Virus record (IMG/VR): IMGVR_UViG_3300033153_002115
Location: 34,469 to 98,468 of that record
Origin: a virus
Reading direction: 5' to 3' (one strand)
DNA length: 64,000 bases
Shown here: positions 23,701 to 56,831 of the stretch, piece after piece
How positions within the stretch are numbered: position 1 is the first letter of the stretch
Layout of the letters: the number at the start of each line of letters is the position of its first letter
Made by a program: the position numbers and the translations under genes
The notes under the pieces: model-generated
The model's input: the letters and a program-made list of their open reading frames with translations, nothing else
Database searches by the model: none
What the model was told of the DNA's origin: nothing

Positions 23701-25538
23701 AAGAATTTACAAAGAAAACTTTATGGGATAATGCAGTAAACTATGCTGCAGGTAAAGATAATAAAAAAGAAATAACAGATCCAGTTACAGGTAAAACTGT
23801 AAAAGTACTGGATAAAGGAGTACAAACCTTAGAGTCTTTAATATCTAAGGAAATGAAAAACATACACGAAGTTAGGGAGTTAAATCCACAACAAATTAGA
23901 GAGTTATCTGCCGAAGATAGAGCTGAGATATACCGAGAAGCATCGGATATTGTAATGAAGAGTCATAGTGGTGATATATTTAAAGCCCTTAACTCATTAA
24001 ATCTTGCGGCTCTTTCTTATGGATATAAATCTGCTATTAAACCTGAAATAGATATGGCTCTCCACTACTTAGAGCAAATGGAAGCAGGTATATCGGATGA
24101 AGAGTTCAGTTTTGGTGATATAGATAGTAAAGATGTAGGCAATGTTAAAGACATGGTAGACTACTTTATCGACAGAGAATACTTCGATATAGGAAACCAG
24201 GATAAGTCGATGAAACTGCCGATTTCTGTCTATACATCGGATGAAAAGAGAAGAAGAAAGCAATTGTTAGAACAATTAGAAAGACTAGCTACAGATCAAA
24301 CTCTAAAAGGTAAAACTACAAAGAAACGTCTTGAAACAGAATTAAAAGAAATCGGGCGTAATGTAACAGTGAATTCTATCCTTAAGAGTTTAATGGATTT
24401 TATGAGAATATCTACAATGGGGTGGAATATACAGTCAGCTATTGCTAACTTTATGCAAGGTCAGATAGTAAATATAATACATGCCGCTGAAGGGAAATTG
24501 TTTACTTGGGAAACTTTAAAAGCAGCTTATTCTACAGTATTTACAGAAAAGTTCGATAATATTATAAAGAACTACGCTGTTCTTGGTGATATTATGTATG
24601 ATTTTGAACGTAAGAACCCATTCGAAAAGAAAAAAGGGGTTTTCGGTAAAATAAAAAGCGCTGTAATGCCTTACGCTGGTACAAAAATAGCCGAAAAATT
24701 GAATCAAGGTAACATAACTGTTGCTATGTTAATGCATATGCAAGTACAAGATAAAAATGGTAATGATATAAGCATTTGGGATGCTATAGATGATAAGGGG
24801 ACTTTATCAAAAGAATACACATTTAATGGACAGAAAGGAGACGCAGCTATAGCAGAAGTTATTATACCTATAAGAGATCAAATAAACTTAATTCATGGTG
24901 ACTATAATAACGCTAAATTACTTGGTAAAACTATTGTAGGTAAAGCAGCATCGATGTTTCATTTATGGTTTTTTGAACCATATCATGCGCATTTTGGAGC
25001 AAGAAAATATAATGCTATTTTAGGTAGAGAAACAAGAGGACGTGTATTATCGGCTATGGAATTAATCCCAAAATACGGATTAAGTTATAAAAAAATGCGA
25101 CAAGCTAGAGCAACCGAGAAAATAACTGAAGTTGATCTTAATAATATAAAAGTACTTTTTATGGAACTTAGTGCTATAGCTGTTACAGGGTTACTATCTC
25201 TATTAGCTAAAGCTACTTTATGTAATGATGAAGAAACCAAATGTGGTGGTGTAGGGACTACTTATCTAGTTAATACTCTTAATCGTATAGCAAGAGAAGT
25301 AAAAACATTTACAGATCCTACTGCATATTATGATCTTGTAACGAATCCTGTCGCTGTAGCTAGATACCTTAAAAGTATAGCTAGGATATTCCAGTATATG
25401 AGTGATGCGGCAGCAGGAGAGGATATGGATAATAAAGATGGGGATAATAAAATACTTATAACTTTAAGTAAAGAATTCCCTATATTAAGAAGATTAATTA
25501 TTGAACGTGATTTAATGGAAAATATTAGAAATTATTAA
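20790..25538 (+). CDS. Giant virion cargo protein, 1582 aa
   Basis: Last gene of the cargo block; N-terminal FIEKFGDW...NEP motif seen in large phage virion proteins; helical body; hydrophobic C-terminal segments. Confidence 0.65.
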   Translation: MQCLNINLPSIRKNLDDLTKLTGDKEVAYATLASNNGYTMKQTMTGKVSSLYNELEAISNIPEEAEILKMNVHSSEFIEKFGDWRNLKQGRLNTDNEPKLFTETGKYYYIGEKNKRISIKVNKPASFKKVAPLTSEETNNALKKQYTKDTEGPIKKGSFVSFKSKDGGITDAMVYKVNPNGSFNLFNTTTVTKDHIGILQNKTPRQLTKKGDYHTIGGAKGKPEVLVLYANKDRKEPLILNIKDKISVNKQSSNIQQNYIDAAVQYGLSKEPTIKPTETVETKPLHTDKDKVFVHAENVQEVDEVKAGIDEDISNGVKVFMVLPPQFANQHDMAISAYLTDMDWVYNVNEGVAYFAKPKAKIPTTESQKVPGPTQSFSKRTPGTITDSKGNLHKLGTLAANMIQFLQEKRQDALPYLRQGKQLVSKIERALLKAVPDATLFIYNKIPEVVLANRQLKERIATDSKDPRIRQVTGSDNIDLYNSLMYDLYTETVHRAMQLDRKVPGKGGSFNLRSDHIQAKLRNDIRSLEERKLNLQNTGAANKDIDAVTTEINDINAILEQDVEEYNLKTLKDIAKTDLAKARRILAKENISPDEFVRAKNILQNWIDVGNFEDTDKNIFLDESQAVNPEIQKDFKEIANEAESIKDTSLNNKGRNLITSKISSTLNKVFNFNDITKLKNKVNGWFKTVFSIAKVDNPTVAYIMKTINTAAKKAEVKAITESNHLAELYETLRQKGFDFELFWQKDKDGTVTGNLVSEYTSEYLKRLRNFKRGYGRLSDYKNDNVFIDVSRLAGASTLAIEKYVEELTPIIGRDKAISAVAEADMLFKRYMEIKDHYLMAEFGVENEEELEAGSEEASRMLQWKIQNSPAIRAAAIDKANTGTFNEIQGAAADRFLVTVPKKFDENGKPTELYDDTFTSITEDTDAAAFYKRAYEITKKAKEHFNTSGMTEYALGAIQNTILEEYQEHGIKEFTKKTLWDNAVNYAAGKDNKKEITDPVTGKTVKVLDKGVQTLESLISKEMKNIHEVRELNPQQIRELSAEDRAEIYREASDIVMKSHSGDIFKALNSLNLAALSYGYKSAIKPEIDMALHYLEQMEAGISDEEFSFGDIDSKDVGNVKDMVDYFIDREYFDIGNQDKSMKLPISVYTSDEKRRRKQLLEQLERLATDQTLKGKTTKKRLETELKEIGRNVTVNSILKSLMDFMRISTMGWNIQSAIANFMQGQIVNIIHAAEGKLFTWETLKAAYSTVFTEKFDNIIKNYAVLGDIMYDFERKNPFEKKKGVFGKIKSAVMPYAGTKIAEKLNQGNITVAMLMHMQVQDKNGNDISIWDAIDDKGTLSKEYTFNGQKGDAAIAEVIIPIRDQINLIHGDYNNAKLLGKTIVGKAASMFHLWFFEPYHAHFGARKYNAILGRETRGRVLSAMELIPKYGLSYKKMRQARATEKITEVDLNNIKVLFMELSAIAVTGLLSLLAKATLCNDEETKCGGVGTTYLVNTLNRIAREVKTFTDPTAYYDLVTNPVAVARYLKSIARIFQYMSDAAAGEDMDNKDGDNKILITLSKEFPILRRLIIERDLMENIRNY

Positions 25539-25539
25539 G

Positions 25540-25625
25540 AAGAGAGGATGGGATTCGAACCCACGGAGCTTTTACACCCTCTGATTTAGCAAACCAGTGC
25601 AATAGACCAACTCTGCCACCTCTCT
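25540..25625 (-). tRNA. tRNA-Ser(GCT)
   Basis: Anticodon arm CTGGT-TT GCT AA-ATCAG, long variable arm, TTCGAAT T-loop. Confidence 0.9.
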
Positions 25626-25630
25626 TTATG

Positions 25631-25701
25631 AGATGCCGGTCAGGATCGAACTGACGAACGGAGCTTTGCAGGCAACTACCTTACCACTCGGTTACAGCAT
25701 C
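25631..25701 (-). tRNA. tRNA-Cys(GCA), imperfect anticodon stem
   Basis: Loop CT GCA AA; acceptor GATGCTG/CGGCATC; two mismatches in the anticodon stem. Confidence 0.75.
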
Positions 25702-25704
25702 ATG

Positions 25705-25776
25705 CACAGGGAGTAGGATTCGAACCTACAAACTACGCTTTTGGAGAACGCTTGCCACACCTATAACTGCCCCTGT
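25705..25776 (-). tRNA. tRNA-Trp(CCA)
   Basis: Loop CT CCA AA; acceptor ACAGGGG/TCCCTGT, G73; atypical D-arm. Confidence 0.8.
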
Positions 25777-25780
25777 ATTG

Positions 25781-25860
25781 TGCCTCACGAAGAATCGAAC
25801 TTCCTAGTCATTAGACACCAGATTTACAGTCTGGTCCTGATCCCACTCAGCAGACTCGGC
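25781..25860 (-). tRNA. tRNA-Tyr(GTA), irregular acceptor stem
   Basis: CCAGA-CT GTA AA-TCTGG, long variable arm; acceptor stem only partly paired. Confidence 0.7.
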
Positions 25861-25865
25861 ATTAG

Positions 25866-25950
25866 AGGAAAGTGTGGGATTCCAACCCACAAGACTTTGA
25901 CATCCTACTGGTTTTCAAGACCAGGCCCTCGTGCACCACGGACACTTTCC
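25866..25950 (-). tRNA. tRNA-Ser(TGA)
   Basis: CTGGT-CT TGA AA-ACCAG; acceptor GGAAAGT/ACTTTCC; long variable arm. Confidence 0.85.
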
Positions 25951-25955
25951 TTATG

Positions 25956-26028
25956 TGGAATCAGATAGACTCGAACTACCGTCTCAAGATCTTCAATCTC
26001 GTGCTATTGCCTCCTCAGCTATGATTCC
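25956..26028 (-). tRNA. tRNA-Phe(GAA)
   Basis: CGAGA-TT GAA GA-TCTTG; acceptor GGAATCA/TGATTCC. Confidence 0.88.
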
Positions 26029-26033
26029 ATTAG

Positions 26034-26108
26034 TGCGGAAAGAGAGACTCGAACTCTCAGAACTCTGGAGCCTAAATCCAGCGACTTTACCTATTTGCCC
26101 ACTCCCGC
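26034..26108 (-). tRNA. tRNA-Leu(TAG), short variable region
   Basis: CTGGA-TT TAG GC-TCCAG; acceptor GCGGGAG/TTTCCGC; only 6 nt between anticodon and T arms. Confidence 0.85.
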
Positions 26109-26114
26109 ATTTTG

Positions 26115-26201
26115 TGCACCTGGTGAGAGTCGAACTCACAAGACCATCACTGATCACTGGGGCTTAAACCCAGCGCGTTTCTCCAGTTTCGCCACAGACG
26201 C
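26115..26201 (-). tRNA. tRNA-Leu(TAA)
   Basis: CTGGG-TT TAA GC-CCCAG; long variable arm; A73. Confidence 0.9.
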
Positions 26202-26204
26202 ATA

Positions 26205-26241
26205 TAAACCAGAAAGACCCTACTCGTTAAAGTAAGGTCTT
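26205..26241 (-). terminator. Attenuator terminator of tRNA operon B
   Basis: Hairpin AAGACCTTACT-TTAACG-AGTAGGGTCTT followed by TCTGGTTT, just before tRNA-Leu(TAA); its 5' arm (CCTTAC) can alternatively pair with GTAAGG in the leader. Confidence 0.75.
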
Positions 26242-26272
26242 AGTACTATATTGTATTATTTATATAGCTATC

Positions 26273-26332
26273 CTAATCCCTTACCGAAGTAAGCAGCGAC
26301 CAGAAACTAAATAAATAACATGTTGTTTTCAT
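26273..26332 (-). CDS. Leader peptide B, MKTTCYLFSFWSLLTSVRD (19 aa), putative attenuator of the Leu/Phe/Ser/Tyr/Trp/Cys tRNA operon
   Basis: Translated by hand. Codons TGT TAT TTA TTT AGT TTC TGG TCG CTG CTT match the 8 downstream tRNAs; the 3' end overlaps the antiterminator arm. Confidence 0.85.
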   Translation of the reverse strand: MKTTCYLFSFWSLLTSVRD

Positions 26333-26442
26333 AAAATGTTATATTAAAACCGGTTAAATTAATAACCGGCCTTTACAATTTAAAGTGTCAATCAGGTTTT
26401 GCACCCCTGTTTTACATGACAAACTCGTTGTTTTTGCGGTAA

Positions 26443-26474
26443 CAAATATACACCTTATATATTATACAACCAAA
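26443..26474 (-). promoter_or_regulatory. Bacteroidota sigma70 promoter for tRNA operon B
   Basis: TTTG-N20-TATATTTG, matching the -33/-7 consensus. Confidence 0.75.
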
Positions 26475-26480
26475 TAAAAG

Positions 26481-26553
26481 TTACCCCGGCTGGATTCGAA
26501 CCAGAATTACAAGGCTCAAAACCTTGTGTGCTTGCCGTTTACACTACAGGGCA
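26481..26553 (-). tRNA. tRNA-Gln(TTG)
   Basis: CAAGG-TT TTG AG-CCTTG; U1-A72. Confidence 0.88.
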
Positions 26554-26558
26554 ATATG

Positions 26559-26631
26559 AGAAGGTGAAAGGAATCGAACCTTCAACCTCCGAATTCGTAG
26601 TCCGGGGCTCATCCATTTGAGCTACACCTCC
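26559..26631 (-). tRNA. tRNA-Arg(ACG)
   Basis: CCGGA-CT ACG AA-TTCGG. Confidence 0.88.
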
Positions 26632-26636
26632 ATTAG

Positions 26637-26709
26637 TGATGCCTCTGGGTTTCGAACCCAGGCTCTTCGCATTAAAAGTGCGAGGCTTTACCAACTAAGC
26701 TAAGACACC
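26637..26709 (-). tRNA. tRNA-Lys(TTT)
   Basis: TCGCA-CT TTT AA-TGCGA. Confidence 0.9.
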
Positions 26710-26826
26710 TGATAAATAGAATATCTATACTCCTTTATCGGTGCGGCCAGTTCTCCGTACATCTCTACGACCTCCAAGCCTCTTGAATTAACACTATACA
26801 TAACATTTAATTTTAATTAATACTAG

Positions 26827-26901
26827 TACTGCCAACGAGGCTCGAACTCGCATCTTCCAGGATGAAAACCTGACGTCCTACTCCATTTAGACTACAGCAG
26901 C
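26827..26901 (-). tRNA. tRNA-Glu(TTC)
   Basis: TCAGG-TT TTC AT-CCTGG. Confidence 0.88.
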
Positions 26902-26912
26902 ATATAATTTAG

Positions 26913-26984
26913 AACCCCTACCGAGAGTCGAACTCAGGACTTGGGTTTAGAAGACCCACGCTTTTCCAGTTAAGCTATAAGGGT
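26913..26984 (-). tRNA. tRNA-Arg(TCT)
   Basis: TGGGT-CT TCT AA-ACCCA. Confidence 0.85.
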
Positions 26985-26989
26985 ACCTG

Positions 26990-27063
26990 TAGGGATGGCA
27001 GGAATTGAACCGACGCTCTCCCGGATATCAGCCGGGCACTTTAACCAACTAAGCTACACCCCC
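26990..27063 (-). tRNA. tRNA-Ile(GAT)
   Basis: CCCGG-CT GAT AT-CCGGG. Confidence 0.88.
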
Positions 27064-27068
27064 ATATG

Positions 27069-27144
27069 TTGACCTGGGCGGATTCGAACCGACGACTTCT
27101 TCCTTGTAAGGGAAGCACTCTGAACCAGACTGAGTTACAGATCA
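27069..27144 (-). tRNA. tRNA-Val(TAC)
   Basis: CTTCC-CT TAC AA-GGAAG. Confidence 0.88.
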
Positions 27145-27149
27145 ATTTG

Positions 27150-27223
27150 CGGACTGGTAAAGATTCGAACTTTACATACTTTCTGATATTCATCAGATTT
27201 TCTTTCCCGTTAATTTACAGCCC
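27150..27223 (-). pseudogene. tRNA-like element with 6-nt anticodon loop and no clear D-arm
   Basis: Acceptor-like GGGCTG/CAGTCC, T-arm GTAAAG-TTCGAAT-CTTTAC, arm TCTGA-TGAATA-TCAGA. Confidence 0.6.
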
Positions 27224-27230
27224 AATATAG

Positions 27231-27306
27231 CGGTCCCGGAGGGTATCGAACCCTCGTTTTTCTAGCGTGACAGGCTAGATCCCCGGCCATTGGGGCTCAC
27301 GAAACC
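27231..27306 (-). tRNA. tRNA-Asp(GTC)
   Basis: CTAGC-CT GTC AC-GCTAG; G73. Confidence 0.88.
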
Positions 27307-27310
27307 ATTG

Positions 27311-27384
27311 TGGGCAATGCTGGATTTGAACCAACGACCTTCTCCTTATGAGGGAGCTGCTCTACCTGACTAAGCTAAAAGCCC
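27311..27384 (-). tRNA. tRNA with CAT anticodon, probably Ile2 (lysidine, reads ATA)
   Basis: Loop CT CAT AA; 5' GGGCTTTTAGCTTAG resembles Ile2 rather than Met; leader A contains an ATA codon. Confidence 0.7.
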
Positions 27385-27389
27385 AAAAG

Positions 27390-27464
27390 TTGCGGGAGTG
27401 AGAATCGAACTCACGTTAATCTTGCTTATGAGACAAGGCTGGAACCCCTCCAGACCACCCCGCA
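27390..27464 (-). tRNA. tRNA-Met(CAT)
   Basis: Loop CT CAT AA; fMet-like acceptor TGCGGGG/TCCCGCA but lacking the three anticodon-stem G-C pairs. Confidence 0.8.
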
Positions 27465-27566
27465 ATATAAGATCAGGTGTCGCACCTAAAGACTTACTTA
27501 AATCCAGCTCGGAACTGCAATCTATTTATCTTAGCGATACAAGGGAATCGAACCCTTCACCTAATG

Positions 27567-27639
27567 AGCCTCCGACAGGAATCGAACCTGTTATCCTCTG
27601 ATTACAAATCAGTAGCTTCGCCAGCAAAGCTTAAGAGGC
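27567..27639 (-). tRNA. tRNA-Thr(TGT)
   Basis: CTGA-TT TGT AA-TCAG; acceptor GCC/GGC. Confidence 0.85.
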
Positions 27640-27643
27640 ATAA

Positions 27644-27683
27644 TTGGTCGGTGTTTTTATACAGGTACCAACCAAGAGCCTGT
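27644..27683 (-). ncRNA. Putative 40-nt H-type pseudoknot RNA in a tRNA spacer
   Basis: S1 ACAGG/CCTGT, L1 CTC, S2 TTGGTTGGT/ACCGACCAA, L2 A, A-rich L3 ATAAAAAC. Confidence 0.5.
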
Positions 27684-27688
27684 CTTCG

Positions 27689-27762
27689 AGCGAGTAGACG
27701 GGATCAAACCGACTCTAATCCTGGTTGGAAGCCAGGTGCACCATCATTTATGCGTTACTCGC
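27689..27762 (-). tRNA. tRNA-Gly(TCC)
   Basis: CCTGG-CT TCC AA-CCAGG; acceptor GCGAGTA/TACTCGC, U73. Confidence 0.88.
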
Positions 27763-27767
27763 TTATG

Positions 27768-27839
27768 CGGAATGAGATGGATTCGAACCAACGTACATCT
27801 GCTTAACAGGCAGGCGCTAAGCCGCTTAGCTATCATTCC
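27768..27839 (-). tRNA. tRNA-Asn(GTT)
   Basis: CTGC-CT GTT AA-GCAG; G73. Confidence 0.88.
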
Positions 27840-27843
27840 TTAG

Positions 27844-27915
27844 TGGAGCCGAAGTGAATCGAACACTCGTAACTCTGCTTGCAAGGCAAAGCTTCTAACC
27901 AACAAGACCAACCCC
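27844..27915 (-). tRNA. tRNA-Ala(TGC)
   Basis: Loop CT TGC AA; G3:U70 identity pair present. Confidence 0.85.
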
Positions 27916-27919
27916 ATTG

Positions 27920-27993
27920 GGTGTATGATGAGACTCGAACTCACTTCAACTGGAACCACAATCCAGCCCCTCGGCCACTTCGGGATCATACAC
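27920..27993 (-). tRNA. tRNA-His(GTG)
   Basis: CTGGA-TT GTG GT-TCCAG; C73; position -1 encoded as T, not G. Confidence 0.85.
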
Positions 27994-27995
27994 AG

Positions 27996-28069
27996 TAGGG
28001 TGAGTCAGATTCGAACTGACGGACCGGTGATTCCAAATCACCGTAGTATAGCCTCTGCAATACCACCCT
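27996..28069 (-). tRNA. tRNA-Pro(TGG)
   Basis: GGTGA-TT TGG AA-TCACC; acceptor AGGGTGG/TCACCCT. Confidence 0.8.
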
Positions 28070-28073
28070 ATAT

Positions 28074-28111
28074 AAAACAAAAAAGACCTTCCTGTTTAGT
28101 CGGAAAGTCTT
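28074..28111 (-). terminator. Attenuator terminator of tRNA operon A
   Basis: Hairpin AAGACTTTCC-GACTAAACA-GGAAGGTCTT plus TTTTGTTTT immediately before the first tRNA; its 5' arm can alternatively pair with GGAGGGCTCTTGCT in the leader. Confidence 0.85.
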
Positions 28112-28141
28112 ACTTGTGTTATTTTATATTATACGATAATA

Positions 28142-28219
28142 TCACATAGCAAGAGCCCTCCCACGAATTGTATCCGCCTTCGGCTGCTCGACTGTATGTA
28201 TATTATTCATTGTTCTCAT
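28142..28219 (-). CDS. Leader peptide A, MRTMNNIHTVEQPKADTIRGRALAM (25 aa), putative attenuator of the 16-tRNA operon
   Basis: Translated by hand. Contains all 14 amino acids served by the downstream tRNAs and no C/Y/F/W/S; the 3' end overlaps the antiterminator arm. Confidence 0.85.
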   Translation of the reverse strand: MRTMNNIHTVEQPKADTIRGRALAM

Positions 28220-28223
28220 GTTG

Positions 28224-28231
28224 CAAATATA
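28224..28231 (-). promoter_or_regulatory. Bacteroidota sigma70 -7 element for tRNA operon A
   Basis: TATATTTG-CAAC-ATG: the leader start codon sits about at the expected +1 (near-leaderless mRNA); -33 element not canonical. Confidence 0.7.
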
Positions 28232-28317
28232 TATAAAAGATTCGATTTTAAAGTCCTTTAGAATGAATTATTTTAAAATTTCTTACCTATGATACTGTTA
28301 GATTGATTCTCAAAGGG

Positions 28318-31020
28318 TTAGATATGCCCACCTGTAGACCATTTAGTATATAATGCCTGACTTGATGCTAATGAGAAATTTCCTGGTAAAGTAGTCGGCT
28401 GAATACTTAACCATAACTCATCTCCAAAATCACCATCTCTTCTTGCTATCATTTCTGACACATCTAATAACGCTTGGAAAGTAATCTTTTCATCTAACAC
28501 GGCAGCTTTACTTATAACTATACTATTTGAATTGGTTATAGGAGCACCAGGTTCTGAATAAGTAATAGGATCACCATCTTTTAACCATCCCCAACGTACA
28601 GTCCATTCATAAGTTCCTGTAGAATTTGCATGCCCACTCCACATTAATTTAATAGGACTTGAAGTATCAAGATCAAAAGGCAGAAATCCACTAACACCTA
28701 ATATATCACCTGTAGCTGTAAATTTGTTATTTGTTAATCCTGCTCCTATATCTTCACTTATATATAAAGTCTGACTCTGCATACTACCTTCAAAAGGTTT
28801 ACCAGAAGCTAAGTTCAAACCTAATTGTGCTTCAGGTCTAGCTGTACCAAAGAACTCTATCCAACCATCACCATTTACCTCAAGTCTGTTTGAATGCACT
28901 TTCCATTGTTCGAATACAGGAGCTGTAGTAATAGTTGCTGTAATTCTATATCGTATCCAATAATAATCTACACCTAATACAGGTGTTATAGGATCATTCT
29001 TGGCCCACCCATCATTTTGTAGTACACTATCATATCTAATTTGAGTAGAGCCTACAGCCTGGAAAATGTTTTTAGCTTTTGGGTAATACTTTCCACCAGA
29101 ATCTGCTTCCATTACATTAAGTTCAACCCAAACACTTCCATTCCAGTATTCTGTAACAATATTTCCTGTACCAAAAACTGCAGCTAAAGTAACTTTTGTT
29201 TTAATACCATAATGATGTAGAACATCTACAGTATCAGCACGCATACTTGCTATATATATAGCAGAATCGGCGTCTAAATTAGGGAACGTAAAAGTAGATC
29301 CACTAGCAGATTTAGCCGCAGCAGAAACATCCACAAAAGAAGCACCATCATAAGTATACACTACCATACCGGCAGTATAACTATCTCCTTCACCAAACAC
29401 ACTTTCTGCTGGTATCCCTGGACTTCCTACGTGTAACTCGCCAAGAATATTTAACCCTTCATCATCTTCACTTACATCCAGTATATAAACATAAAAACCA
29501 GCTCCAGGTATGACGTAGCTGTTATTGATCTCAGAAAATCCGTTACCTGTAACAAGAGAATTAGGATTTAACACATTAAAATTAAGCCCAGTACATTGGG
29601 TTATAGTTGTAGAAAATAGACTTACTTTTACATTAGTTCCTACATTGTCAACCCTAAACCCGTTGTTTTGACAGAACATTATACGTAAAGCATCAAATCT
29701 AACGTCGGTGTTATCCCCTGAAATAACCATAGCATCGTAAACATACCCTATAGAGGCAGTACCACCTAGAAGTAAAGCACCATCTAATACCTGTAATACA
29801 GTTGTAATAGTAGGACTTATTGTTATTAGATTATGAAGACTTACTTTTGTATTAGGGCCGGATATGATAATACCATTAGTTACAATTACAGTTGATCTGA
29901 ATGTTATATTATCTAAATCCGCATTTCCACTTTGAATGTTTATAGCATTTACAGTAGTTGTTAAAGCAGGGTTATTTACAGTTAAAGCTGATATTTCAAA
30001 AACAGCGCTTGCGTGATTTAAATAAAACCCATTAGCAGCATCTCTTAATACACAATTATTCACTGTAGTGACACCAGGACTTTCGTGTTTCAATATATAA
30101 GCAGTACCTGTATTACCACTGAACACTATACCAGTTATGTATGCAAATACACCGCCGGTAAACATATCATTAGTAGTAACTAAAGGTTTGAATACTATAG
30201 CTCTTCCACCAATAGCAGTGATATTAGTAAAGTCTTTTAGAGCAATAGGCCCTAAACTATTATCTATAATATATTCACCAGGAGCAACTTCTATACTATA
30301 CCTATTTGCAGAAGTGTTATCTGTAATAGAAGCTATAGCCAAAGCTATGTCTGTAAAGTCCCCTCCAGATTTAGCTACAGTAATAACATTACTTAAAGTA
30401 CCGCCTGCAGGGAAGGTTATAGATTGATCGATTATATAATCAACATTAAGTTCATCAAAATGCTTTAATGGGACTAATATCCAATAGATAAAAGCTGCTG
30501 GATTAGTTGCCAAAGTTCCTGATAGTGTATAGTTACCACTACTATCCAGAGTGTTAACAACAACACCAGTTGCAGCGTAATCCGGCTTACCATCCACAAT
30601 ATTGCTGACCACAGCATCTTCACCATTCGCCCACTGATCGAAGAGGATTGTACTACCCGTAGGTGGGCTGATTTGGCCGCTAGTGCTTGTACCATTGATT
30701 TGCTCATAATATAGTATTTTAATTTGTGTATCTTCTATAGCAGTCATTCTACCTTCCAATGACGTAACATCACCGGCATATCCACCCTTAAAAAAGTCCT
30801 TAGTAGCGACAAGTAGTTCTGCTAGATCAGTATAATAGGAATCATCTTCTTTCTGGAGATATACAATCTCTGTAGGACTCATAGTTGACTCATGAGTATC
30901 TGAAGACTCTATAGCTACTTTAAGTCCATTATCATAGATTCTAAGTATATATCTACCAGCAGGAAGAATATCATTACCTACATGAAATATATTATTAAGT
31001 GCTTCTTTATAGAAATACAT
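28318..31020 (-). CDS. Tail spike/fiber with pectin-lyase-like beta-helix
   Basis: ITVAKSGGDFTDIALAI...IEVAPGEY beta-helix cap followed by Asn/Ile/Val-rich coils; N-terminal about 80 aa shared with 33483..34151. Confidence 0.75.
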   Translation of the reverse strand: MYFYKEALNNIFHVGNDILPAGRYILRIYDNGLKVAIESSDTHESTMSPTEIVYLQKEDDSYYTDLAELLVATKDFFKGGYAGDVTSLEGRMTAIEDTQIKILYYEQINGTSTSGQISPPTGSTILFDQWANGEDAVVSNIVDGKPDYAATGVVVNTLDSSGNYTLSGTLATNPAAFIYWILVPLKHFDELNVDYIIDQSITFPAGGTLSNVITVAKSGGDFTDIALAIASITDNTSANRYSIEVAPGEYIIDNSLGPIALKDFTNITAIGGRAIVFKPLVTTNDMFTGGVFAYITGIVFSGNTGTAYILKHESPGVTTVNNCVLRDAANGFYLNHASAVFEISALTVNNPALTTTVNAINIQSGNADLDNITFRSTVIVTNGIIISGPNTKVSLHNLITISPTITTVLQVLDGALLLGGTASIGYVYDAMVISGDNTDVRFDALRIMFCQNNGFRVDNVGTNVKVSLFSTTITQCTGLNFNVLNPNSLVTGNGFSEINNSYVIPGAGFYVYILDVSEDDEGLNILGELHVGSPGIPAESVFGEGDSYTAGMVVYTYDGASFVDVSAAAKSASGSTFTFPNLDADSAIYIASMRADTVDVLHHYGIKTKVTLAAVFGTGNIVTEYWNGSVWVELNVMEADSGGKYYPKAKNIFQAVGSTQIRYDSVLQNDGWAKNDPITPVLGVDYYWIRYRITATITTAPVFEQWKVHSNRLEVNGDGWIEFFGTARPEAQLGLNLASGKPFEGSMQSQTLYISEDIGAGLTNNKFTATGDILGVSGFLPFDLDTSSPIKLMWSGHANSTGTYEWTVRWGWLKDGDPITYSEPGAPITNSNSIVISKAAVLDEKITFQALLDVSEMIARRDGDFGDELWLSIQPTTLPGNFSLASSQALYTKWSTGGHI

Positions 31021-54328: not shown

Positions 54329-54649
54329 TTATAAATACCACGCATTATCTATTGCAGCTCTTCCACAAATAGAACAAGCTACACTCATACTTACCAAGTC
54401 AATACCTTTCTCACTTAGAAAGTACAACTTATCTTCATCGCACATCTGTAAGTTCAGCTTTTCTTGTTTTGCTTTGGTAAATAAAGTACCACTAAATCCA
54501 TCTGAAAATCCATATATAGTAGCTTTCTCATCACATTCGTGATCAGTAGTTTCACCACCACACATTATTCCGGACATGTTATCTATTATAATTGTTCTAC
54601 ATCCTTGTCTCATGATATAATTAAGTTTAATGAATCCAATAGTCTCCAA
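54329..54649 (-). CDS. Hypothetical zinc-binding protein
   Basis: HEC...CSICG; true start probably downstream of 54649. Confidence 0.5.
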   Translation of the reverse strand: METIGFIKLNYIMRQGCRTIIIDNMSGIMCGGETTDHECDEKATIYGFSDGFSGTLFTKAKQEKLNLQMCDEDKLYFLSEKGIDLVSMSVACSICGRAAIDNAWYL

Positions 54650-56831
54650 TTACAGGTATATCTGCTTTTAAGATATCCTGTCTAAGTGCTAGCTTACCAG
54701 CTAGTTCCATATAATACTGAAGTTTAACTTTATAATACTCTGCTAAATCTCCAGCACCTTCCATAATTACTTCATCATATGGAGTTAATACAATCCATGC
54801 GTGGTGTCCCATATGTTTTATATGACGTCGTAGTAAAACTGTACAAACCTTTAGAATAGCCGCACCTAAACCTTGAATTGTGAAATTCCCTGCTTTACGT
54901 ATAATACTATTCTTATCATAATGTATCTCTCTAGGATTTACAAACCTACAAGTACCAAAAGCAGATTCTGGTGTATATGCGTGACTTAATGCAAACCTAC
55001 CTACCTTACTAAAATAAGGCTTAACGCCAGGTGAAGCATCATAGAATGCATCGATAAGATCTTGTGCTTGGTCTTCAGTTATCTTTAACCTAAACGCAGC
55101 ACCAAACTTACTCAAACCATATATTATACCAAAAGATATCTGTTTACTATTAGATCTAAGGTGTTTATGTTTCTTACATTTGCACTTATCCTTAGTCTTT
55201 TGATATTCACAATCTATCTCTGTACCTTGTTCCCACTCGTTTCCAAATATACGTTCAGAATTAACAGAATGTAAATCATGTCCTGCTTTAATAGCATCTA
55301 GCCAAGTTTTCTCTTTGGTCATAATAGCAGTAATGACAAGCTCTTCACTCTTATAGTCAGACATTATAAACTTATTACCTTCTTCTGCTTCGAAACAAGC
55401 ACGATAGTCTTTATCGTTTACAATGTTTAATACATTAGGGTTAGAACTTGATATACGTCCAGTATTAAGTACAGGGTTTATATTAGTTCTTACTCTACCA
55501 TCAGCTTCTACATGTTCAAGATAATTCAAACCAAACTTGGTAACTTTACCTATCGCTCCTTGATACTCTTCCAAATACACACTAAGAAGCCTATGTTTAT
55601 AAGCTATCTCTTCCATGTGATCTTTATCAGTACTTGTTAGGCCCGGAGATATCCATCGGAACACTTCCATTCTTTGTACATGTGAACCCCAATTGATTCT
55701 TACACTATCTTTAGGTATAAGTAACTCTCTTTCAACCATTTCATCACGAAAATGCTTAACAAACTGATTAGTAACATCACTTGTTCTACCTAATAGTATC
55801 AACTTAATAAACGTAAACTTACTGTTCGTAATAGTTGTTATGTACGGTTCAGCTTTCTTACTGTTAGGTGTCACACCTTCAGGCCAATCTGTATCATGTT
55901 TACATAAATATTTACGTAGTTCTACCTGGGAAGTATTTTCTAAGTCCGGGAATACTATCTGAAGCAAGTTAAGCTTATTTGCAGCAGAAGAGTACAACTT
56001 ATCTTTAGGTGTATCTTTATCGAATATATACCCTGCAGCTACACTTAACACATAAAAGTCTTCGAACAATATCCTATCGAGATGTTTGACAGCAGCAGTT
56101 ACTAAAGGTAAAGATTTATAATATAATGCTTTCCATTTCTCTACATTAAGTTTAATACCGTAATACTCCATATCAGCAAGAACCTTAATAAACTCATGGT
56201 TCCACCAATTAGCTTTCTTCAAGCCTCTGGTCTTATTCTTAGTAATAAGTTTTTTAAACTTAGTGTCATGCTCTTCGATCTCATCTTCCTGCAATTCTCG
56301 CACTTTAGCAAGAAATAGAACGTCATACACAGCATATTTAACCTGTGCATCAGTTATACTAATATTATCAACAAAGCTGGTTTGTAGTTCCTTGGGCATA
56401 TCTATATCTAAATACTTCTTAACTATAGAAGCCAAATCAGCTCGCCAGTTATTATGCCCCATACCTAACAGTTTCTCTGTCAAATAAGTATCATAAAAAT
56501 GATTGAAATCTACGCCATACTTCTTCCACATTTTGTATTCAAACTTGGCATTCTGTACCAAGAACTTACCATATGTCATCAAAGCGCATAATTTAGCAAG
56601 CTCTGTAGCGTTAAGTTCTTTAACAAATATAACCCAACATACGTCACCTGCATAATAAGTAGCTACTAACATTTCCCTATCTAAGATAGTTTCAGTCATA
56701 TTAGTTTCTAAATCATGAGCTACCCAGTCTTCACTTAGAAACCAGTCTTCAAACAGAGTAAAGTCATGTGTAACATTAGGTAGATACTCTTGTAATTTAC
56801 CACCTGTTTTACTTAATATTTTAAGTTTCAT
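54627..56831 (-). CDS. polA: DNA polymerase family A with 3'-5' exonuclease
   Basis: Exonuclease DLET, NAKFE, YAVYD; TGRISS.NPN; motif A DYKSEE; motif B RSNSKQISFGIIYG; motif C PYDE. Confidence 0.93.
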   Translation of the reverse strand: MKLKILSKTGGKLQEYLPNVTHDFTLFEDWFLSEDWVAHDLETNMTETILDREMLVATYYAGDVCWVIFVKELNATELAKLCALMTYGKFLVQNAKFEYKMWKKYGVDFNHFYDTYLTEKLLGMGHNNWRADLASIVKKYLDIDMPKELQTSFVDNISITDAQVKYAVYDVLFLAKVRELQEDEIEEHDTKFKKLITKNKTRGLKKANWWNHEFIKVLADMEYYGIKLNVEKWKALYYKSLPLVTAAVKHLDRILFEDFYVLSVAAGYIFDKDTPKDKLYSSAANKLNLLQIVFPDLENTSQVELRKYLCKHDTDWPEGVTPNSKKAEPYITTITNSKFTFIKLILLGRTSDVTNQFVKHFRDEMVERELLIPKDSVRINWGSHVQRMEVFRWISPGLTSTDKDHMEEIAYKHRLLSVYLEEYQGAIGKVTKFGLNYLEHVEADGRVRTNINPVLNTGRISSSNPNVLNIVNDKDYRACFEAEEGNKFIMSDYKSEELVITAIMTKEKTWLDAIKAGHDLHSVNSERIFGNEWEQGTEIDCEYQKTKDKCKCKKHKHLRSNSKQISFGIIYGLSKFGAAFRLKITEDQAQDLIDAFYDASPGVKPYFSKVGRFALSHAYTPESAFGTCRFVNPREIHYDKNSIIRKAGNFTIQGLGAAILKVCTVLLRRHIKHMGHHAWIVLTPYDEVIMEGAGDLAEYYKVKLQYYMELAGKLALRQDILKADIPVIGDYWIH

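What the first reader, a model, noticed from the sequence alone, without database searches (positions are those of the whole stretch)
25540..28231. Candidate new system: phage tRNA array controlled by two codon-auditing leader-peptide attenuators that together survey all 20 amino acids
Seen in sequence: the 24 tRNA genes form two operons, each arranged as promoter, then short ORF, then antiterminator/terminator, then tRNAs. Leader A matches its 16 tRNAs (14 amino acids). Leader B matches its 8 tRNAs (the remaining 6 amino acids). The two control sets are complementary, and both terminators share an AAGAC...GTCTT base, suggesting common origin. Established: in trp/his/thr/pheST attenuators, ribosome stalling on control codons frees segment 2 to form the antiterminator. 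Phage tRNAs can offset host tRNA-cleaving defences such as PrrC, RloC and PARIS. Inference: this phage uses a leader that samples essentially every isoacceptor as a general sensor of host tRNA damage or starvation, and transcribes replacement tRNAs only on demand, giving a self-limiting feedback loop. I do not know of a described leader-peptide attenuator that controls tRNA genes themselves with a whole-alphabet leader, but I cannot search the literature here.
Basis: partly seen in the sequence, partly recalled or inferred. Interest (0 to 1): 0.97.

Follow-up and report, generated by a model that had tools for sequence, protein, structure and literature searches.

The report
Codon-matched leader attenuators gating phage tRNAs
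In this crAss-like phage each of two blocks of tRNA genes sits behind a tiny gene spelled in the amino acids those tRNAs carry and joined to a switchable transcription stop, so the phage probably makes tRNAs only when decoding slows; I found no published account of such control, and I found the same design in three groups of cultured marine phages.

Summary
All tRNA genes lie on the minus strand in two blocks (16 and 8 genes; 23 solid, one doubtful Tyr-like). Each block is preceded by a short ORF (25 and 19 codons) and a hairpin plus T tract that ends a few bases before the first tRNA. Leader A holds all 14 amino acids of block A and one foreign codon. Leader B holds a run of ten codons made only of the six amino acids of block B. 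Among 829 small ORFs of the genome, each leader is unique in this respect. Both leaders have an alternative pairing that sequesters the terminator's 5' arm. It is far stronger than in shuffles, and modelling predicts that it forms only when a ribosome sits on the matched codons. I found the same design in Cellulophaga phages phi17:2/phi4:1 and phi38:1/Calle_1 and in Maribacter phage Panino, whose tRNAs are partitioned differently and whose leaders follow that partition. crAss001 and a T4-like phage lack it. Translation, stalling and regulated readthrough are inferred, not shown. The trigger (tRNA-cleaving defence, starvation or codon demand) is open. Literature searches found no description. 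This scan had already noted the same design on other DNA.

The parts
28224..28231 (-). Promoter A: Bacteroidota-type -7 box (TAnnTTTG), ending 4 nt before the leader ATG. This implies a leaderless or nearly leaderless leader mRNA.
   Evidence: Pattern match. The same box + N4 + ATG arrangement occurs in 9 of 14 leaders of five phages. Promoter activity is inferred.
28142..28219 (-). Leader ORF A, 25 codons plus stop. It contains all 14 amino acids carried by block A. Its only foreign codon (Leu CTT) lies in the antiterminator strand.
28133..28210 (-). Segment 1:2 hairpin of leader A. The matched codons pair with the ORF tail and downstream sequence. It is the predicted default fold when no ribosome is stalled.
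   Evidence: MFE fold, z = -6.1, 0 of 200 shuffles as stable.
28149..28161 (-). Antiterminator A, 5' strand (codons 20-24 of the leader). It pairs with 28102-28117, which includes the terminator's 5' arm.
   Evidence: Antiterminator ddG of -10.8 to -11.9 kcal/mol; 0 of 500 and 0 of 300 shuffles reach it. Predicted to form with a ribosome at codons 1-15 and not at codons 17-26.
28074..28111 (-). Terminator A: 10-bp stem (28102-28111 with 28083-28092), 9-nt loop, T-rich tract 28074-28082. tRNA-Pro starts at 28069.
26480..28069 (-). tRNA block A, 16 genes: Pro, His, Ala, Asn, Gly, Thr, Met(CAT) x2, Asp, Val, Ile, Arg(TCT), Glu, Lys, Arg(ACG), Gln. The spacers hold tRNA-like remnants.
   Evidence: ARAGORN, Rfam, low-threshold ARAGORN.
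26443..26474 (-). Promoter B: full Bacteroidota consensus TTTG-N20-TAnnTTTG, about 100 nt upstream of leader B.
   Evidence: One of 4 matches in the 64-kb window. Activity is inferred.
26346..26369 (-). Terminator-like hairpin plus T run between promoter B and leader B. Its role is unexplained. It may be the terminator of block A or an extra control point.
   Evidence: Fold.
26273..26332 (-). Leader ORF B, 19 codons plus stop. Codons 5-14 are ten consecutive codons for Cys, Tyr, Leu, Phe, Ser and Trp only.
26254..26320 (-). Segment 1:2 hairpin of leader B. The matched codons pair with sequence downstream of the ORF.
   Evidence: MFE fold, z = -5.7, 0 of 200 shuffles.
26273..26285 (-). Antiterminator B, 5' strand (last codons and the stop codon). 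It pairs with 26231-26245, which includes the terminator's 5' arm.
   Evidence: ddG of -8 to -12 kcal/mol; 6 of 500 and 0 of 300 shuffles reach it. Predicted to form with a ribosome at codons 5-12 and not at codons 14-17.
26202..26241 (-). Terminator B: 12-pair stem-loop 26214-26241 and a weak T tract 26202-26213. tRNA-Leu starts at 26201.
25539..26201 (-). tRNA block B, 8 genes: Leu(TAA), Leu(TAG), Phe, Ser(TGA), Tyr-like (doubtful), Trp, Cys, Ser(GCT).

Best explanation
These are two ribosome-mediated (leader-peptide) transcription attenuators. Each gates one block of phage tRNA genes, and each is written in the amino acids that its own block decodes.

Proposed mechanism. Host RNA polymerase starts at a Bacteroidota-type promoter. 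For leader A the transcript starts at or next to the AUG. A ribosome translates the leader while the polymerase moves on.

- If all sampled aminoacyl-tRNAs are plentiful, the ribosome runs into the ORF tail and stop codon. There it covers the 5' strand of the antiterminator. The terminator hairpin then forms and transcription ends a few bases before the first tRNA.
- If any sampled tRNA is scarce, the ribosome stalls on the matched codons. It breaks the 1:2 hairpin and leaves the tail free to pair with the terminator's 5' arm. The polymerase then reads through into the tRNA block.
- The new tRNAs restore decoding and shut the switch again.

Shown here: the ORF/tRNA correspondence, the hairpins, the alternative pairings and their dependence on the modelled ribosome position, and recurrence in other phages.

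Inferred: promoter use, translation of the leaders, stalling, regulated termination and the physiological trigger.
For: 1. The match is far beyond chance. Leader A is the only one of 829 small ORFs that covers all 14 block-A amino acids. Leader B is the only short ORF that covers all 8 block-B tRNAs. A pure run covering the whole set occurs only in leaders among 1401 background ORFs.

2. Position. Each leader lies between a promoter-like box and a terminator-like hairpin that ends 6-13 nt before the first tRNA.

3. Structure. The leader regions fold much better than shuffles (z = -6.1 and -5.7). Antiterminator pairing is stronger than in 300-500 dinucleotide shuffles (A 0/500 and 0/300; B 6/500 and 0/300). 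With a masked ribosome footprint, the terminator's 5' arm is sequestered when the ribosome sits on the matched codons. It is free when the ribosome sits on the tail or the stop codon.

4. Recurrence with co-variation of content. Cellulophaga phages phi17:2/phi4:1 (L001, L002), phi38:1 (L015) and Calle_1 (L016), and Maribacter phage Panino (L011, L009), each have three leaders matched to three blocks. All are followed by strong terminators. In those phages the Leu tRNAs sit with Pro/Glu/Gln/His/Arg and Asn sits with Tyr/Ser/Trp/Phe, and their leaders follow that grouping. In the window, Leu sits in block B and Asn in block A, and the leaders follow that instead.

5. The true leader-to-block assignment ranks first of all permutations in all four phages.

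6. The Tyr/Ser/Asn/Trp/Phe leaders of phi17:2 and Panino keep their composition but not their residue order.

7. Six of eight leaders tested have a significant antiterminator.

8. Controls without such ORFs: crAss001 and Cronobacter phage S13.
Against: - There are no expression data.
- In leader A, the only codons that match Ile-GAT, Arg-ACG and Gly lie where a stalled ribosome is predicted to block the antiterminator.
- Without a ribosome, the ensemble for leader A leaves the terminator arm mostly paired (0.73-0.82). The default state therefore depends on folding kinetics.
- At equilibrium the terminator of B wins almost everywhere, so the switch must be kinetic.
- The T tract of terminator B is weak.
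- A terminator-like hairpin lies between promoter B and leader B.
- Two of eight antiterminators tested are not significant (phi17:2 leader 2, Panino leader 3).
- Transcription-translation coupling in Bacteroidota is not established (my knowledge).
- The three flavobacterial-phage arrays are homologous to each other, so they are not three independent replicates.
Confidence: 0.68

Rival explanations
1. The leaders are real, selected sensors of decoding, but their output is not classical stall-induced antitermination. Possible outputs are translation-dependent RNA processing or stability, Rho-type polarity, or reversed polarity (fast translation opens the terminator).
For: The composition match and its recurrence argue only for selection on codon content, not for a particular output. 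Equilibrium folding favours the terminator of B in nearly all ribosome positions. Leader A without a ribosome is ambiguous. Two of eight antiterminators are not significant.
Against: In six of eight leaders the terminator's 5' arm has a significantly strong alternative partner inside the ORF tail. The predicted switch point falls at the end of the matched codons. That is the geometry of stall-induced readthrough.
Confidence: 0.17
2. The short ORFs encode small peptides with a function of their own, or are not translated at all. The hairpins are ordinary terminators or insulators, and the tRNAs are made from readthrough or other promoters. The composition match is then a by-product.
For: Several of these ORFs are annotated as hypothetical proteins in GenBank records. 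Leader B is hydrophobic and T-rich. All six block-B amino acids have U-first codons, so T-rich sequence favours them.
Against: Residue order is not conserved between phi17:2 and Panino while composition is. Leaders follow different tRNA partitions in different phages. There is no room for another promoter between terminator and first tRNA (6-13 nt). Background small ORFs, including T-rich ones, do not reach the match.
Confidence: 0.05
3. Chance: two unremarkable small ORFs and two unrelated hairpins.
For: The finding was made by eye, with freedom in choosing ORFs. Codon-level isoacceptor coverage is not significant.
Against: Each leader is unique among 829 to 1401 small ORFs and sits exactly upstream of its matching block. 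Eleven leader-block pairs in four phage groups all match. Fold z-scores and antiterminator tests also argue against chance.
Confidence: 0.02

Closest known systems
Multivalent leader-peptide attenuators of enterobacterial amino-acid operons (ilvGMEDA leader for Ile/Leu/Val; thr leader for Thr/Ile; also trpL, hisL, leuL, pheL)
   Same: Short leader ORF enriched in regulatory codons. A 1:2 / 2:3 / 3:4 set of alternative hairpins with an intrinsic terminator. Ribosome position decides between terminator and antiterminator. More than one amino acid can be sensed by one leader. (Established knowledge; the features were tested here in silico.)
   Different: The regulated genes are tRNA genes, not biosynthetic enzymes. 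The leader samples 6 to 14 different amino acids, mostly once or twice each, rather than runs of one to three. The host is Bacteroidota, with no Shine-Dalgarno use and several apparently leaderless leader mRNAs. The element is carried by phages.
pheST attenuator (pheM leader) of Escherichia coli
   Same: A leader-peptide attenuator that controls a component of the translation apparatus in response to the supply of a charged tRNA. (My knowledge.)
   Different: It controls an aminoacyl-tRNA synthetase, senses one amino acid, and belongs to the cell rather than a phage.
T-box riboswitches
   Same: They sense the state of a specific tRNA and decide between terminator and antiterminator upstream of translation-related genes.
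   Different: T-boxes bind uncharged tRNA directly and need no ribosome. No T-box or other Rfam cis-regulatory family matches here.
Cryptic trn operon (long tRNA array) of Anabaena sp. PCC 7120
   Same: An accessory tRNA array that is silent by default and switched on when translation is impaired (PMC8421152).
   Different: [quoted passage not shown] Neither paper mentions a leader peptide, attenuator or terminator.
Phage tRNA arrays as counter-defence or codon supplements (T4, T5 and others)
   Same: Phage-borne tRNA sets, proposed to replace host tRNAs cleaved by anticodon nucleases, PARIS and similar systems, or to serve phage codon usage (PMC10264068, PMC11464382).
   Different: Those studies do not describe demand-sensing control of the arrays. 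crAss001 and a T4-like phage examined here show no matched leaders.

Membership tests
Ribosome-mediated leader-peptide transcription attenuators | Short ORF in the transcribed leader, between promoter and regulated genes | tested here: met
   ORFs at 28142-28219 and 26273-26332 on the tRNA strand, downstream of -7 box / full promoter matches.
Ribosome-mediated leader-peptide transcription attenuators | Leader enriched in codons tied to the function of the regulated genes | tested here: met
   Unique among 829 to 1401 small ORFs. True leader/block assignment ranks first in four phages.
Ribosome-mediated leader-peptide transcription attenuators | Intrinsic terminator (stable hairpin plus U tract) between leader ORF and first regulated gene | tested here: met
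   A: 10-bp stem plus T6. B: 12 pairs with a weaker T tract. Strong terminators also occur in all nine leaders of the other phages.
Ribosome-mediated leader-peptide transcription attenuators | Mutually exclusive antiterminator whose formation depends on ribosome position | tested here: met
   ddG versus shuffles and footprint-masked folding. In silico only. Three codons of leader A fall outside the sensing zone.
Ribosome-mediated leader-peptide transcription attenuators | Leader is translated and stalling raises readthrough | not testable with these tools
   No expression data could be reached.
Ribosome-mediated leader-peptide transcription attenuators | Regulated genes encode amino-acid biosynthesis enzymes or synthetases (true of all described members) | tested here: not met
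   The regulated genes are tRNAs. Hence I class this as a new variant, not an ordinary member.
T-box riboswitch (RF00230) | Match to the T-box covariance model (specifier loop, T-box sequence) | tested here: not met
   The Rfam scan of 25300-28500 at E up to 1 lists only tRNA-clan and chance plastid matches.
Anabaena-type repressor control of a tRNA array | [quoted passage not shown] | not tested
   I did not look for this. The papers describe a mechanism without a leader or terminator.

The most novel reading that the evidence does not exclude
Unrelated lineages of Bacteroidota phages (a crAss-like phage, Callevirus, Lightbulbvirus, Panino) share a modular tRNA-pool homeostat. Each tRNA block carries its own roster leader that reports slow decoding of any sampled codon. 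The device may serve as a counter-defence sensor that switches on replacement tRNAs when host tRNA-cleaving immunity, or infection-induced loss of host tRNAs, depletes even one isoacceptor. The sorting of blocks roughly by first codon letter would reflect separate sensing channels.
Probability: 0.3. Interest if true: 0.95.

Novelty: new variant of a known kind. Interest (0 to 1): 0.86.

Why it matters
How phages control their tRNA arrays is essentially unknown. Why they carry them has been debated for decades (codon supply versus escape from tRNA-targeting defences). A leader that reads out the decoding speed of exactly the codons served by the downstream tRNAs would make the arrays demand-driven. 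It would link them directly to tRNA depletion, and it would extend classical attenuation from amino-acid enzymes to the tRNAs themselves, in a phylum where attenuation is little studied.

The idea is directly testable, because I found the same design in cultured phage-host pairs (Cellulophaga baltica with phi38:1 or phi17:2; Maribacter with Panino). There is also a practical point. Small 'hypothetical proteins' annotated inside these arrays are probably regulatory leaders. Such leaders could also serve as compact multi-amino-acid sensors.

Tried and rejected
- Close relatives of the window phage. Scans with the flanking 900-aa and 1582-aa proteins found only an unrelated contig sharing a tail-fibre end (L003, no tRNAs) and a distant 101-kb phage with two tRNAs. 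Orthologous leaders could therefore not be compared.
- The leaders are too short for the search for related loci.
A pattern for the Pro/Glu/Gln/His/Leu/Arg leader found only phi4:1 itself.
The phi38:1 transcriptome paper does not discuss phage tRNAs or leaders.
- Codon-level claim: with the peptides fixed, hitting both isoacceptor families of Arg, Ile, Leu and Ser has P = 0.17. I rejected it as evidence.
- Equilibrium folding with the full terminator present shows the terminator winning almost everywhere. I replaced it with a kinetic-style model in which the transcript is cut before the 3' arm.
- Generality: crAss001 and Cronobacter phage S13 arrays show no matched leaders, so the design is not universal.
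- T-box or other known RNA families: none.
- Anabaena trn operon: a different mechanism.
- Common origin of the two terminators: only the shared five-pair base supports it. I left it open.

Full report
**What is there.** The window is part of a complete 98,468-bp phage genome with direct terminal repeats and 34.7% G+C. The structural genes lie on the plus strand and the replication genes on the minus strand. The DNA polymerase finds its best, though distant (about 25% identity), matches in crAss-like phages.

All tRNA genes are on the minus strand. ARAGORN. Rfam adds Gly-TCC at 27689-27762 and a weak Tyr-GTA-like element at 25782-25860. The Tyr-like element has a good anticodon arm, variable arm and T arm, but a defective acceptor stem.

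Read in the direction of transcription, block A (28069 to 26480) holds Pro, His, Ala, Asn, Gly, Thr, two CAT tRNAs, Asp, Val, Ile, Arg-TCT, Glu, Lys, Arg-ACG and Gln. After a 278-nt gap, block B (26201 to 25539) holds two Leu, Phe, Ser, the Tyr-like element, Trp, Cys and Ser.

**The leaders.** A 25-codon ORF (28219 to 28142) lies upstream of block A. A 19-codon ORF (26332 to 26273) lies upstream of block B.

Leader A contains every one of the 14 amino acids of block A and a single foreign codon, a Leu CTT. Leader B contains ten consecutive codons made only of the six amino acids of block B, and all six are present.

I scored every ATG ORF of 10-45 codons in all six frames of the whole genome. 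Of 829 ORFs, leader A is the only one that covers all 14 amino acids, even though ORFs of up to 45 codons were allowed. Leader B is one of four that cover all eight block-B tRNAs; the other three have 39-42 codons. Against 1401 small ORFs pooled from this genome and six other loci, an uninterrupted run covering the whole set occurs only in leaders.

The finer claim, that both isoacceptors of Arg, Ile, Leu and Ser are deliberately sampled, is not supported. With the peptides fixed and codons drawn from phage usage, this happens 17% of the time.

**Promoters and terminators.** A Bacteroidota-type -7 box ends four bases before the ATG of leader A. The leader mRNA would therefore start at or next to its AUG. 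A full TTTG-N20-TAnnTTTG promoter, one of four in the 64-kb window, lies at 26443-26474 between the blocks.

Each leader is followed by a stable hairpin and a T-rich tract that ends 6-13 nt before the first tRNA. No separate promoter can fit in that space. The two hairpins share an AAGAC...GTCTT base and are the only such hairpins in the window.

**The switch.** Both leader regions fold far better than dinucleotide shuffles (z = -6.1 and -5.7, none of 200 shuffles as stable). In the minimum-energy fold, the matched codons are buried in a long 5' hairpin and the terminator stands alone.

With the full terminator present, equilibrium folding favours it in almost every ribosome position. This is also true of classical attenuators, which work kinetically. 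I therefore folded the transcript as it exists before the terminator's 3' arm is made, masking a ribosome footprint (15 nt before to 14 nt after the first base of the A-site codon) at each codon in turn.

- Leader A: the terminator's 5' arm is paired upstream with probability 0.9-1.0 for a ribosome at codons 1-15. This falls to 0.1-0.4 at codons 17-26.
- Leader B: the probability is 0.6-0.8 at codons 5-12, the matched run, and 0.1-0.2 at codons 14-17.

The partner strand lies in the tail of each ORF. In leader A it includes the lone Leu codon, which explains that exception.

The gain in stability from this antiterminator is -10.8 to -11.9 kcal/mol for A (0 of 500 and 0 of 300 shuffles reach it). 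For B it is -8 to -12 kcal/mol (6 of 500, 0 of 300).

Two weaknesses remain. The only codons that match Ile-GAT, Arg-ACG and Gly (codons 18-20 of leader A) lie in the zone where a stalled ribosome would hide the antiterminator. Without any ribosome, the ensemble for A leaves the arm mostly paired.

**The same design elsewhere.** No close relative of this phage could be reached. The tRNA genes, however, have weak DNA matches to arrays of cultured flavobacterial phages, and I examined those arrays with the same script.

- Cellulophaga phage phi17:2 (identical in phi4:1) has three blocks: Pro/Glu/Gln/His/Leu/Leu/Arg; Ala/Lys/Ile/Gly/Met/Asp/Thr/Val/Arg/Met; and Tyr/Ser/Asn/Trp/Phe.
- Upstream of each block lies a short ORF with a run of 11, 16 and 10 residues drawn only from that block's amino acids (L001 5549-5617, 4574-4657, 3000-3098).
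- Maribacter phage Panino (L011 822-902 and 1843-1917; L009 6365-6466) shows the same pattern.
- So do the podoviruses phi38:1 (L015) and Calle_1 (L016).
- Every leader is followed by a strong terminator directly before a tRNA.

Nine of the fourteen leaders have the -7 box, four bases and ATG arrangement. Six of the eight leaders tested have a significant antiterminator, with the same step in the footprint scan.

The Tyr/Ser/Asn/Trp/Phe leaders of phi17:2 and Panino differ in residue order but keep their composition. That is what selection on codon content, rather than on a peptide, predicts.

The partitions also differ between these phages and the window, and the leaders follow the difference. 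Leu is sampled together with Pro/Glu/Gln/His/Arg in the flavobacterial phages but with Phe/Ser/Tyr/Trp/Cys in the window. Asn moves the other way.

When leaders are permuted among blocks within each phage, the true assignment is the best in all four (31 against 4; 37 against at most 18; 27 against at most 15; 26 against at most 16). The product of ranks is 1/432, the minimum attainable.

The arrays of crAss001 and of the T4-like Cronobacter phage S13 show nothing comparable. The script therefore does not find matches everywhere, and the design is not universal.

**Interpretation.** The best reading is a leader-peptide attenuator in front of each tRNA block. Fast decoding takes the ribosome onto the antiterminator strand, and transcription stops before the tRNAs. 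Slow decoding of any sampled codon holds the ribosome back, the antiterminator forms, and the block is transcribed. This gives self-limiting feedback.

What triggers it in nature is not addressed by my data. Candidates are the phage's own codon demand (the phage uses ATA for 53% of Ile codons), loss of host tRNAs during infection, tRNA-cleaving defence systems (PMC10264068, PMC11464382) or amino-acid starvation.

**Comparison with what is known.** In mechanism this is closest to the multivalent attenuators of the ilv and thr operons and to the pheST attenuator. It fails one feature common to all described members: the regulated genes are tRNAs.

It is not a T-box. The Anabaena accessory tRNA operon is also switched on by translational stress, but it is controlled at the promoter by repeats and a repressor.

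Six full-text searches found no paper that describes leader-peptide control of tRNA genes. No paper at all holds both 'tRNA array' and 'leader peptide'.

Earlier notes of this scan report the same design in several other phage genomes. They also proposed the hairpin segments of leader B on this genome. I treated these as leads and tested them here.

**Verdict.** The thing is a new variant of a known regulatory principle, and it is experimentally accessible in cultured phage-host pairs.

Noticed in passing
window 27149-27223 and 27465-27565: The spacers inside block A hold tRNA-like remnants. Low-threshold ARAGORN calls elements with abnormal anticodon loops, and a perfect T arm sits near 27543-27555. 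I did not test that.
   Followed up: partly
window 26346-26369 (minus strand): A terminator-like hairpin with a T run lies between the consensus promoter at 26443-26474 and leader B. It could end block A transcripts, or add a control step before leader B. A minimal ATG-stop pair also lies in this 5' region, near 26414-26419.
   Followed up: partly
window 25777-25864 (minus strand): The Tyr-GTA-like tRNA has normal anticodon, variable and T arms, similar to the Tyr tRNAs of phi17:2 and Panino. Only three Watson-Crick pairs remain in its acceptor stem, so it may be a pseudogene.
   Followed up: yes
window 25539-28069; L001, L011, L009, L015: tRNA blocks are sorted roughly by the first codon letter. 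Block B of the window holds exactly the amino acids that have U-first codons. In the flavobacterial phages one block is mostly C-first, one A/G-first and one U-first. These classes also differ in position-37 tRNA modification (my knowledge). The meaning is unknown.
   Followed up: no
L001 4574-4693; L009 6365-6466; L011 807-902; L015 178-285: Several of the leaders are annotated in GenBank as hypothetical proteins (phi17:2 gp077, Panino CDS0108 and CDS0063, phi38:1 gp066), some with upstream alternative start codons that lie inside the promoter box.
   Followed up: yes
L015 about 340-446 and 1850-1944: In phi38:1 the stretches between the leader terminators and the first ARAGORN-called tRNA contain further tRNA-like sequences, with Ala-TGC and Tyr-GTA anticodon loops. 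The software missed them. They fit the Ala and Tyr residues in the leaders.
   Followed up: partly
L013 (Bacteroides phage crAss001, 600-6400): The 23-tRNA array of crAss001 is interrupted by protein genes and shows no composition-matched short ORFs. The device is therefore not a general crAss-like trait.
   Followed up: yes
whole genome; window 54627-56831: The phage is a very divergent crAss-like phage. The DNA polymerase is about 25% identical to those of crAss-like phages. Giant plus-strand proteins of 1781, 2723 and 1582 aa precede the array. No close relative was found in IMG/VR or the metagenome contigs searched.
   Followed up: partly
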